This document shows positions 1 through 448 of a DNA stretch of 448 nt, one piece after another; the stretch's first letter is position 1, and the number at the start of each line of letters is the position of its first letter. The notes beneath the pieces were generated by a model. That model searched no databases, was not told the DNA's origin, and saw nothing but the letters and a program-made list of their open reading frames with translations. Location of the stretch: the NCBI RefSeq assembly GCF_003334335.1, contig NZ_QOWQ01000188.1; one strand, written 5' to 3'. The position numbers and the translations under genes were made by a program. This stretch comes from Escherichia coli. Its GTDB lineage: Bacteria > Pseudomonadota > Gammaproteobacteria > Enterobacterales > Enterobacteriaceae.

Positions 1-254
1 CGCCAGGCGTTGATCCCGGCGGTTTTGAGTTCTCTGGCTTTTTCCGGGCTGATGGATGGCTGTACATATTCTGCAATTTCACCGGCCTCTCCTCTCAGAC
101 AAGCGGCATAAATATCCCGCCCGTATGCTTCGGTATCGCTGGCTGTTGCAGTGAAAGGAACCGCCTGCTCAATGTGCTCAAACTTCACCATGCAATTCAC
201 AGCAGTGTGATCTTTATCTGCCCATTGCGGATTGCTTATTTTTTCCACATTCAT
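1..254 (-). CDS. 5' portion (first 84 codons, 3' end beyond the left edge) of a small acidic protein; candidate tail-fibre assembly chaperone (Tfa-like) by position, otherwise hypothetical protein
   Basis: Minus-strand ATG at 254-252 lies 6 nt downstream of AGGAG (265-261); an in-frame ATG at 260-258 directly abuts the SD (0-nt spacing) and is a less likely start. The frame is open to position 1. Translation from 254: MNVEKISNPQWADKDHTAVNCMVKFEHIEQAVPFTATASDTEAYGRDIYAACLRGEAGEIAEYVQPSISPEKARELKTAGINAW... Net acidic (about 13 D/E vs 8 K/R) with E. coli-like codons (CTG, GAA, AAA, CCG). The plus-strand frame over the same codons translates to a Cys/His/Phe-rich, low-plausibility peptide with no ATG or RBS. 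Tfa-like label is inferred from position next to a putative fibre tip; the N-terminus is not recognised by sequence. Confidence 0.6.
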   Translation of the reverse strand, partial: MNVEKISNPQWADKDHTAVNCMVKFEHIEQAVPFTATASDTEAYGRDIYAACLRGEAGEIAEYVQPSISPEKARELKTAGINAW

Positions 255-260
255 GTTCAT

Positions 261-265
261 CTCCT
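261..265 (-). promoter_or_regulatory. Shine-Dalgarno (AGGAG) for the downstream minus-strand CDS
   Basis: Plus strand 'ctcct' at 261-265 is AGGAG on the minus strand. Minus-strand context: TGA-CAGAC-AGGAG-ATG-AAC-ATG. It sits 6 nt before the ATG at 254-252 and 5 nt after the upstream stop. Confidence 0.55.
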
Positions 266-270
266 GTCTG

Positions 271-448
271 TCAGTATGCGCGCTGGAACAGCCCGATGCC
301 TTCATTGTCATTTGTCGACGTAATTTCATTACACACCATCCATGAGCCCGGAACTGAGGATAGGTTGCCGTCAATGCCATCGGTGTTAGCTTTCATATAG
401 TTTCCGTTTTCGTCTTTGATTAGGGCGCATCGCTTAAGGCGTGAACCC
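271..448 (-). CDS. 3' end (58 codons plus stop) of a larger gene whose 5' part lies beyond the right edge of the window; probable phage tail-fibre / receptor-binding protein C-terminal tip (function inferred, not recognised by name)
   Basis: Minus-strand frame is stop-free from position 448 down to the TGA at 273-271 (plus strand 'tca'). Translation N->C: GSRLKRCALIKDENGNYMKANTDGIDGNLSSVPGSWMVCNEITSTNDNEGIGLFQRAY*. 26 of 58 residues are N/G/D/S/T, with two Cys. A Shine-Dalgarno and start for the next gene follow 5-10 nt after the stop, i.e. an operon arrangement. Plus-strand frames 1 and 2 over this region contain stops. Functional label rests on composition and gene order only. Confidence 0.6.
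   Translation of the reverse strand, partial: GSRLKRCALIKDENGNYMKANTDGIDGNLSSVPGSWMVCNEITSTNDNEGIGLFQRAY

What the first reader, a model, noticed from the sequence alone, without database searches (positions are those of the whole stretch)
271..448. Upstream gene C-terminus has the composition of a receptor-binding tip
The last 58 residues (…KDENGNYMKANTDGIDGNLSSVPGSWMVCNEITSTNDNEGIGLFQRAY) are 45% N/G/D/S/T, with an aromatic/hydrophobic extreme C-terminus (GIGLFQRAY) and two Cys. This fits beta-rich distal fibre or adhesin domains, the part that determines receptor specificity. It is a compositional argument only; I do not recognise a named motif.
Basis: inference. Interest (0 to 1): 0.3.

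Follow-up and report, generated by a model that had tools for sequence, protein, structure and literature searches.

The report
Prophage side tail fibre tip domain

Summary
Window 271-448, minus strand, encodes 58 C-terminal residues plus a stop codon, 44.8% N/G/D/S/T, with two Cys.

- **Full-length protein.** At 496 aa in near-identical E. coli prophages, it has a prophage tail-fibre N-terminal domain, four collagen blocks, a phage fibre repeat, then a 94-aa tip. It lies after gpJ and before a DUF4376 tail-fibre assembly gene, whose first 84 codons fill window 254-3.
- **Tip family.** The tip matches no Pfam or NCBIfam model. Weak hits led to a large family of strictly C-terminal tip domains in Aeromonas, Pseudomonas (Pbunavirus), Hafnia, Stenotrophomonas and Klebsiella phages and many metagenomic proteins. 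In all nine phages examined a small assembly gene follows, and its N-terminal module is homologous to ours.
- **Cassette.** An E. coli prophage with a near-identical shaft (L006) carries an unrelated tip and assembly-protein front half, marking a swapped cassette that covers window 15-448; two others with the same attachment domain (L004, L005) show the same pairing.

Receptor binding is inferred, partly from a Pbunavirus tip mutation that changes LPS recognition. Verdict: new member of a known kind, low to moderate interest.

The parts
271..448 (-). 3' end of the side tail fibre gene: the last 58 of the 94 residues of the C-terminal tip domain, plus the stop codon TGA (window 273-271)
   Evidence: Translation. 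The sequence is identical to residues 439-496 of the 496-aa fibre at L001:8271-9761. A tip-family profile built without any E. coli sequence matches fibre residues 401-496 (31.7 bits).
306..377 (-). Variable loop region of the tip (tip residues 46-69, IKDENGNYMKANTDGIDGNLSSVP). It takes in most of a 12-residue insertion (ALIKDENGNYMK, tip 44-55) relative to the nearest phage relatives, and the allelic sites E48, N49 and N64.
   Evidence: Alignment A2 shows the insertion. E. coli alleles differ at KDENG/KDASG/KDTSG and DGN/DGI/DGR/DGK. This is the lowest-confidence part of the model (pLDDT 66-71). In the family the loop between the GSxL and GTW motifs ranges from 14 to 39 residues.
274..305 (-). 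Conserved core of the tip: the GSWMVCN motif (family consensus GTWRCMG), a short loop and the terminal strand GIGLFQRAY (family consensus TLWxRI[S/A] at the protein end). The first two bases of the motif's Gly codon lie at window 307-306, just inside the preceding part.
   Evidence: G70, W72 and R92 are invariant across 68 sequences. Strands 71-74 and 87-92 have block pLDDT of about 93. In 103 of 104 hits the domain ends at the last residue of the protein.
255..270 (-). 16-nt spacer between the fibre gene and the assembly gene, with the ribosome-binding site AGGAG (window 265-261) 6 nt ahead of the ATG
   Evidence: Read directly from the minus strand: TGAcagacAGGAGatgaacATG.
39..254 (-). N-terminal module (residues 1-72) of the tail-fibre assembly protein; the tip-specific half of the chaperone
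   Evidence: Translation. It is 40% identical to the Aeromonas phage 32 chaperone N-terminus (E 5e-15). A profile of nine non-E. coli chaperone N-termini scores 78.9 bits on it and does not match the three alternative-allele chaperones. No Pfam family matches it.
1..38 (-). Start of the conserved DUF4376 C-terminal module of the assembly protein (from residue 73)
   Evidence: Pfam PF14301 matches residues 73-183 (E 4e-20). DNA homology with the alternative-allele locus L006 resumes at window position 14 and below.

Best explanation
The stretch encodes the outer part of the 94-residue distal knob of a trimeric, collagen-like side tail fibre (a lambda Stf analogue) of a lambdoid, P-Eib-type E. 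coli prophage.

**Shown**
- The protein consists of an N-terminal tail-attachment domain, a collagen shaft, a fibre repeat, a second collagen shaft and then the tip.
- The tip belongs to a large, unnamed, strictly C-terminal fibre-tip family.
- The next gene encodes an assembly chaperone in two modules. Its N-terminal module travels with this tip family across distant phages. Its C-terminal DUF4376 module is shared with chaperones of unrelated tips.
- In the one DNA comparison made (L001 against L006), the tip, the last collagen triplets and the chaperone N-module differ as one unit, so they are read here as one exchangeable cassette.

**Inferred**
- The chaperone's N-module binds three nascent tips while its helical C-module trimerises them.
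- The folded knob then sets the register for the collagen triple helix.
- On the virion the knob is the first contact with the host surface, probably a lipopolysaccharide sugar structure.
- Its N/G/D/S/T-rich variable loops set specificity, while the conserved GSW...C motif and the terminal LFQRAY strand form the structural core.
For: - **Identity and context.** The window is 98.9-99.8% identical to E. coli prophages and induced phages. There the ORF is annotated as a tail fibre, lies after gpJ, and is followed by a DUF4376 gene and an eib-type gene.
- **Architecture.** PF08400, four collagen matches and PF03406. PHROGs tail-fibre families match at E down to 1e-117.
- **Tip family.**
  - Weak tblastn hits fall at the very ends of Aeromonas P2-like fibres (pairwise E 4e-9).
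  - Walking on reaches Pbunavirus, Hafnia, Stenotrophomonas and Klebsiella T4-like fibres, each followed by a small assembly gene.
  - An alignment-based search found 115 proteins. In 103 of the 104 that are not E. coli fibres, the domain ends at the C-terminus.
  - A profile built without E. coli sequences recovers our tip and misses the three alternative E. coli tips.
- **Chaperone co-inheritance.**. It also holds in a Pseudomonadota (phylum-level) MAG prophage.
- **Cassette boundaries.** L001 against L006, with alternative tips and chaperone N-termini.
- **Structure.** AlphaFold with 68 sequences gives pLDDT 81.6 and pTM 0.70, a beta-rich domain. The 23 viral Foldseek hits at E up to about 0.01 are mostly annotated phage tail fibres, the rest unnamed or uncharacterised phage proteins. 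Below the four near-identical E. coli fibres, the listed AFDB hits at E up to 0.007 are mostly annotated phage tail or tail-fibre proteins.
- **Function by analogy.**
  - Variable N-domain binding the fibre and conserved C-domain trimerising is the model for the Mu and Pam3 chaperones (PMC9608196).
  - C-terminal domains of E. coli prophage collagen-like fibres are trimerisation modules (PMC3368898).
Against: - No receptor, adsorption or host-range data exist for this tip.
- The PE1 evolved phages also carry a baseplate mutation, so the fibre change is not cleanly isolated.
- The model is a monomer taken from what should be a trimer, and its loop region is of low confidence.
- Our tip departs from three nearly invariant family positions: S for T71, V for C74 with the Cys shifted to 75, and N for G76.
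- Phages PhiR12_1, _2 and _4 carry this tip with an IS-truncated assembly gene, yet are recorded with laboratory hosts. The side fibre may therefore be dispensable there, as Stf is in laboratory lambda.
- In Mu the chaperone stays on the fibre and contributes to host recognition, so the tip may not act alone.
Confidence: 0.85

Rival explanations
1. The knob is mainly a folding and registration module. It trimerises, with the chaperone's help, to nucleate the collagen triple helix. Receptor contact is made by something else: a retained assembly protein, as in Mu, or gpJ alone.
For: The C-terminal PfC domain of related E. coli prophage collagen-like fibres is a proven trimerisation module (PMC3368898). 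The Mu chaperone stays on the fibre and contributes to recognition (PMC9608196). The best-conserved parts of the tip are core strands.
Against: Whole-tip replacement between related E. coli prophages fits selection on specificity better than a pure folding role. So do the family's 14-39-residue variable loop and the allelic changes clustered in loops. The PE1 tip mutation alters adsorption. The two roles do not exclude each other.
Confidence: 0.12
2. The C-terminal domain is an intramolecular chaperone that is cleaved off after assembly, as in T5 pb1 or K1F endosialidase, so it is not part of the mature fibre.
For: Many fibres end in such domains. DUF4376 chaperones structurally resemble them (PMC10579305).
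Against: No Peptidase_S74 or other chaperone-domain match in Pfam. The model is beta-rich, not a helical bundle with tentacles. A separate chaperone gene follows directly.
Confidence: 0.02
3. The composition is coincidental and the domain is an enzyme, toxin or unrelated adhesin carried as prophage cargo.
For: Cargo genes (an eib-type YadA adhesin and an S6 peptidase) do lie just downstream.
Against: The stretch is the in-frame end of the fibre ORF. No enzyme or toxin family matches in any library. Its named sequence and structural relatives are almost all annotated as phage tail or tail-fibre proteins, and the sequence relatives carry the domain at their C-terminal end.
Confidence: 0.01

Closest known systems
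E. coli prophage collagen-like side tail fibres (EPclA-D of Ghosh et al. 2012, PMC3368898; lambda Stf-type attachment domain)
   Same: PF08400 N-terminal domain, an Ala/Glu-rich linker, collagen Gly-X-Y shafts separated by a PF03406 repeat, a globular C-terminal knob, and a position after gpJ in lambdoid prophages, including the P-Eib type.
   Different: The C-terminal knob is not PF06820 (Phage_fiber_C); Pfam finds nothing there. [quoted passage not shown] Trimer formation was shown for PfC, not for this tip.
Tail-fibre C-termini of Pseudomonas Pbunaviruses (E217 gp46, Pa193 gp47 = PDB 9B45 sequence, PE1 gp78) and of Aeromonas P2-like and other myophages
   Same: They share the terminal domain family: the VGTYxxA, GSxL, GTW.C and TL[W/F]xR motifs, a domain that ends at the last residue, and a small assembly gene downstream with a homologous N-module. 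The profile matches Pa193 gp47 residues 880-962 at E 1e-18.
   Different: - Identity is only 21-31%.
- These are myophage baseplate fibres with beta-rich shafts, not a siphophage collagen fibre.
- Their chaperones have a different C-terminal half; the one tested, from Aeromonas phage 32, gave only a marginal Caudo_TAP match (E 0.13) and no DUF4376.
- Our tip has a 12-residue insertion relative to them and a shifted Cys.
- The Pa193 structure models residues 1-340 only, so the tip is not solved (PMC11456595).
Two-module tail-fibre assembly chaperones (Mu Tfa, Pam3 gp25; DUF4376 chaperones of Alteromonas phages V22 and A5)
   Same: A variable N-terminal module paired with the fibre tip, and a conserved C-terminal module. 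The gene lies immediately after the fibre gene.
   Different: The N-module here has no Pfam family and no solved relative by sequence. Binding, stoichiometry and whether the chaperone stays on the virion are untested.

Membership tests
Lambda-type side tail fibre / EPcl collagen-like prophage fibre | N-terminal prophage tail-fibre attachment domain (PF08400) | tested here: met
   Residues 1-134, E 2.2e-42.
Lambda-type side tail fibre / EPcl collagen-like prophage fibre | Gene lies after the tail-tip gene J and before a tail-fibre assembly gene | tested here: met
   L001 and L003 annotation.
Lambda-type side tail fibre / EPcl collagen-like prophage fibre | Collagen Gly-X-Y shaft(s), with a Pf2 repeat (PF03406) between them in the EPclB type | tested here: met
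   Four PF01391 matches and PF03406 at residues 260-301.
Lambda-type side tail fibre / EPcl collagen-like prophage fibre | C-terminal PfC domain (PF06820), which defines EPclA and EPclB | tested here: not met
   No PF06820 match in the fibre or in any of the 68 tip-family sequences. It is therefore not EPclA or EPclB; it fits the loosely defined EPclC/D group.
Lambda-type side tail fibre / EPcl collagen-like prophage fibre | Forms a trimer with a collagen triple helix | not testable with these tools
   Shown experimentally only for EPclA and its fragments (PMC3368898).
Unnamed C-terminal fibre-tip family (Pbunavirus / Aeromonas P2-like type) | Matches a family profile built without the query or its close relatives | tested here: met
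   31.7 bits over fibre residues 401-496. The three alternative E. coli tips do not match.
Unnamed C-terminal fibre-tip family (Pbunavirus / Aeromonas P2-like type) | Domain ends at the last residue of the protein with a TL[W/F]xR-type strand | tested here: met
   Ours ends GLFQRAY. In 103 of 104 hits the domain ends at the C-terminus.
Unnamed C-terminal fibre-tip family (Pbunavirus / Aeromonas P2-like type) | Core motif GTWRCMG | tested here: inconclusive
   G70 and W72 are kept. T71 is S, C74 is V with the Cys at position 75, and G76 is N. This is a divergent version of the motif.
Unnamed C-terminal fibre-tip family (Pbunavirus / Aeromonas P2-like type) | Followed by an assembly gene with the cognate N-terminal module | tested here: met
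   78.9 bits against a profile of nine non-E. coli chaperone N-termini. Gene order is shown.
Chaperone-dependent fibre tip (Mu / Pam3 model) | Chaperone N-module varies with the tip while the C-module is conserved | tested here: met
Chaperone-dependent fibre tip (Mu / Pam3 model) | Physical tip-chaperone complex, with the chaperone required for folding | not testable with these tools
   No multimer prediction or experiment was available.
Self-cleaving intramolecular chaperone domain (Peptidase_S74 type) | Match to the S74 / endosialidase chaperone domain | tested here: not met
   No such Pfam match. The model is beta-rich.
C1q/TNF-like head following a collagen stalk (BclA, PRD1 P5, Pam3 gp24 type) | Jelly-roll TNF-like fold | tested here: not met
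Solved fibre tips (R-type pyocin foot, T4 gp37 needle, Mu gp49) | Sequence or fold similarity to the solved tip | tested here: not met

The most novel reading that the evidence does not exclude
Probability: 0.4. Interest if true: 0.45.

Novelty: new member of a known kind. Interest (0 to 1): 0.25.

Why it matters
Side tail fibre tips decide which strains a temperate phage can reach, and this prophage type carries virulence cargo (eib adhesins, an S6 protease). The practical gains here are three.

- A 94-aa tip that no annotation library recognises can now be placed in a defined family.
- That family has recognisable motifs and a cognate chaperone module.
- The ends of the exchanged segment were mapped in one pairwise comparison: the last collagen triplets on one side, the start of DUF4376 on the other.

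These points help with annotation and with tip-swap engineering of phages or tailocins. None of it changes how fibres are thought to work.

Tried and rejected
- **Direct family searches with the tip.**
  - Pfam and NCBIfam gave nothing.
  - PHROGs gave one weak tail-protein hit (E 1.6e-4).
  - PDB sequences gave only a chance-level plant chlorophyll-protein hit (E 0.15).
- **phmmer against 1.84 billion representatives.** It found only relatives above 91% identity, plus repetitive Ig-like proteins matched in 4-9 stretches. I treat those as a KDxNGN/compositional artefact.
- **Word-indexed search with the Aeromonas tip.** No candidates.
- **First AlphaFold run.** With seven near-identical sequences the pLDDT was 44, and I discarded the model.
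- **PDB profile hits to KIR and PirB Ig domains.** E was 0.016 or worse, and they reflect only a short motif match (model positions 48-69); rejected.
- **Literature search for the PhiR5/PhiR12 phages.** Nothing relevant.
- **Alternative tip of L006.** It is only marginally like PF06820 (E 0.25), so I do not name it.
- **Chaperone N-module.** No Pfam match and no PDB sequence match.

Full report
**Observation**

On the minus strand, window 271-447 reads GSRLKRCALIKDENGNYMKANTDGIDGNLSSVPGSWMVCNEITSTNDNEGIGLFQRAY followed by a stop codon. N/G/D/S/T account for 26 of 58 residues (44.8%), and there are two Cys. Against an assumed average of about 27.7% for these residues, the binomial p is about 0.004. 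That is real but modest, and not specific. The only slip is that the quoted 48-residue string contains just one of the two Cys.

**Where the window comes from**

The 448 bases match 30 of 5,426 complete E. coli genomes, 28 of them over at least 80% of the window. Best-place identities are at least 95%, and 98.9-99.6% for the 20 records listed. They also match four induced phages (PhiR5_1, PhiR5_2, PhiR12_3, PhiR12_5) over their full length.

In strain 2013C-3033 (locus L001) the gene order on the minus strand is:
- tape measure, minor tail genes, then gpJ;
- this ORF, annotated 'prophage tail fiber N-terminal domain-containing protein', 496 aa;
- a DUF4376 protein of 193 aa;
- a YadA-C (eib-type) gene, a hypothetical gene and an S6 peptidase.

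The old P-EibC, P-EibD and P-EibE GenBank entries start at window position 283 and cover the DUF4376 gene, named 'ORF-191' there. The window therefore holds three things:
- the fibre gene's last 58 codons (271-448);
- a 16-nt spacer with an AGGAG ribosome-binding site (255-270);
- the first 84 codons of the assembly gene (254-3).

**The full-length protein**

Pfam finds PF08400 (prophage tail fibre N-terminal) at residues 1-134 with E 2e-42. It also finds four collagen triple-helix matches and PF03406 (phage tail fibre repeat) at residues 260-301. Nothing matches beyond residue 403. PHROGs tail-fibre families match the N-terminal and shaft parts strongly.

This is the architecture Ghosh et al. 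described for E. coli prophage collagen-like proteins. They showed those proteins to be dumbbell-shaped trimers whose C-terminal PfC domain trimerises (PMC3368898). Here the C-terminal knob is not PfC (PF06820). The protein therefore falls with their minority EPclC/D types, which include a P-EibA fibre and whose C-termini they left uncharacterised.

**What the tip is**

Searched directly, the 94-residue tip (RLVPGEIY...LFQRAY) looks like an orphan.
- NCBIfam and the PDB give no convincing match.
- An exhaustive phmmer run over 1.84 billion representatives returns only E. coli relatives above 91% identity, plus repetitive Ig-like proteins that I regard as compositional artefacts.
- A first AlphaFold run on near-identical sequences failed, with pLDDT 44.

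The way in was a set of sub-threshold tblastn hits (E 0.1-4) lying at the extreme C-termini of the gpH-position fibres of Aeromonas P2-like phages.
- The pairwise alignment is significant (E 4e-9).
- It shares four motifs: GTYxxAAL, PGxxVxGSxL, PG[T/S]WM.C and a terminal [L/I][W/F]xR.
- Searching onward with the Aeromonas tip reaches 253 phage records. These are mostly Pseudomonas Pbunaviruses, but also Hafnia, Stenotrophomonas and a T4-like Klebsiella phage.
- In each of the nine phages I opened, the match is the last roughly 80 residues of a fibre gene, and a 130-160-aa assembly gene follows.
- An alignment-based search added about 100 metagenomic members. In 103 of 104 the domain ends exactly at the protein's last residue.
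- None of 68 aligned members has any Pfam match at E 0.001 or better.
- A profile built from the 66 non-E. coli members recovers our fibre at residues 401-496 (31.7 bits) and does not match the alternative E. coli tips.

The only PDB sequence hit is Pa193 gp47 (9B45, E 1e-18). That structure models residues 1-340 only (PMC11456595), so the tip family has no experimental structure.

**Structure**

With the 68-sequence alignment, AlphaFold gives pLDDT 81.6 and pTM 0.70. The model is a small beta domain with strands at 13-18, 34-36, 40-42, 45-47, 53-55, 71-74 and 87-92.
- The conserved GSW...C motif and the terminal strand fall in the highest-confidence 10-residue blocks (about 93).
- The N/G/D/S/T-rich segment 46-69 is the least confident (66-71).
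- Foldseek against viral and AlphaFold-database models returns mainly phage tail-fibre or 'phage tail' proteins. These come from enterobacteria, Pseudomonas, Aeromonas, roseophages and others, with TM 0.5-0.7 and E down to 2e-5 for non-identical hits.

**Variable and conserved parts**

- Relative to its nearest phage relatives, our tip has a 12-residue insertion, ALIKDENGNYMK.
- Across the family, the loop between the GSxL and GTW motifs ranges from 14 to 39 residues. The tail after GTW varies less, from 18 to 32 residues.
- E. coli alleles of this tip differ at A19, I22, S36, L45, E48, N49, N64, N82 and G86, mostly in predicted loops.
In our tip it sits mainly in these loops.
- The hydrophobic end is conserved core.

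**The chaperone and the cassette**

The downstream protein has DUF4376 at residues 73-183. Its first 72 residues have no Pfam family.
- That N-module is 40% identical to the N-terminus of the Aeromonas phage 32 chaperone (E 5e-15).
- It scores 78.9 bits against a profile of nine non-E. coli chaperones that follow tip-family fibres.
- The chaperones of three alternative E. coli alleles do not match that profile at all.

Those alternative alleles (L004, L005, L006) share the N-terminal attachment domain, and L006 also shares a near-identical shaft. Their tips and chaperone N-termini are unrelated to ours, while the DUF4376 half is nearly identical.

At the DNA level, L001 and L006 are 99.5-99.7% identical on both sides of a non-homologous block. 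That block corresponds to window 15-571: the chaperone N-module, the spacer, the tip and the last collagen triplets.

This matches the published model for Mu Tfa and Pam3 gp25, in which a variable N-domain binds the fibre tip and a conserved helical C-domain trimerises (PMC9608196). It also fits the reported chaperone role of DUF4376 proteins (PMC10579305).

**Function**

Receptor binding is inferred, not shown. The best experimental support comes from Pbunavirus PE1. Its fibre mutation T896I was placed by the authors at the tip of the C-terminal loop. It accompanies improved adsorption and recognition of truncated LPS (PMC12635225). Residue 896 should fall inside the homologous domain if PE1 numbering follows Pa193 (882-962); that mapping is my inference.

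I therefore propose an LPS or other surface-sugar receptor, with moderate confidence. A role in setting the register of the collagen helix is likely as well, and does not conflict with receptor binding.

**Verdict**

This is a new member of a known kind: a chaperone-dependent, exchangeable phage fibre tip. The modest added value is that both the tip and the chaperone's N-module belong to widespread families that current domain libraries and the PDB do not cover.

Noticed in passing
L016:114-2595 (phage PhiR12_1; the same pattern of window matches in PhiR12_2, PhiR12_2_star and PhiR12_4): The assembly gene is cut to 41 codons by an inserted element encoding a transposase/integrase and an ATP-binding transposition helper (IS21-like). 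This explains why these records match only window 160-448. The phages are still recorded with hosts MG1655 or E. coli C, so the side fibre may be dispensable there.
   Followed up: partly
L001:953-6980: Just downstream of the assembly gene lie a YadA-C-terminal (eib-type immunoglobulin-binding) gene, a small hypothetical gene and a 1,341-aa S6-family (SPATE-like) peptidase. This is virulence cargo at the end of the tail module.
   Followed up: no
L002:8271-10232 (phage PhiR5_2): The same tip and assembly gene sit on a 653-aa fibre with a different N-terminus (VSVVVSGTLKSPDG...) and a long Ala/Glu-rich linker. The backbone has no annotated gpJ upstream, and a second fibre gene lies at L002:1804-3072. 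The tip cassette has therefore moved between phage types within E. coli.
   Followed up: partly
P0012, P0014; L001, L003, L016, L002 fibres: Fibres carrying this tip range from 287 to 653 aa, mostly through gain or loss of collagen Gly-X-Y blocks. This is a shaft-length polymorphism.
   Followed up: no
L004:3946-4086 and L005:3642-3782: A Hok/Gef family toxin gene lies between gpJ and the side fibre gene in prophages carrying alternative tips. It is absent at that position in L001.
   Followed up: no
L017:4001-4884 and L018:4001-4462: Complete stand-alone proteins of 138-153 aa that end in the tip domain follow tape-measure and hub-like genes. L017 is a prophage in a Pseudomonadota (phylum-level) MAG, and L018 is a bioreactor-metagenome contig. 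In L017 the next gene begins with the chaperone N-module (25 bits). In L018 it does not.
   Followed up: partly
Tip residues 70-76 (window 306-286, minus strand): Our tip reads GSWMVCN where 90% or more of the family has GTWRCMG. The Cys is shifted by one position and the Gly is lost. The meaning of this nearly invariant Trp-x-Cys motif is unknown.
   Followed up: no
P0015-P0022: The tip gave phmmer E-values of 1e-8 to 1e-3 against large repetitive Ig-like proteins, in 4-9 stretches each. These look like a summed short-motif (KDxNGN-type) artefact rather than homology.
   Followed up: partly
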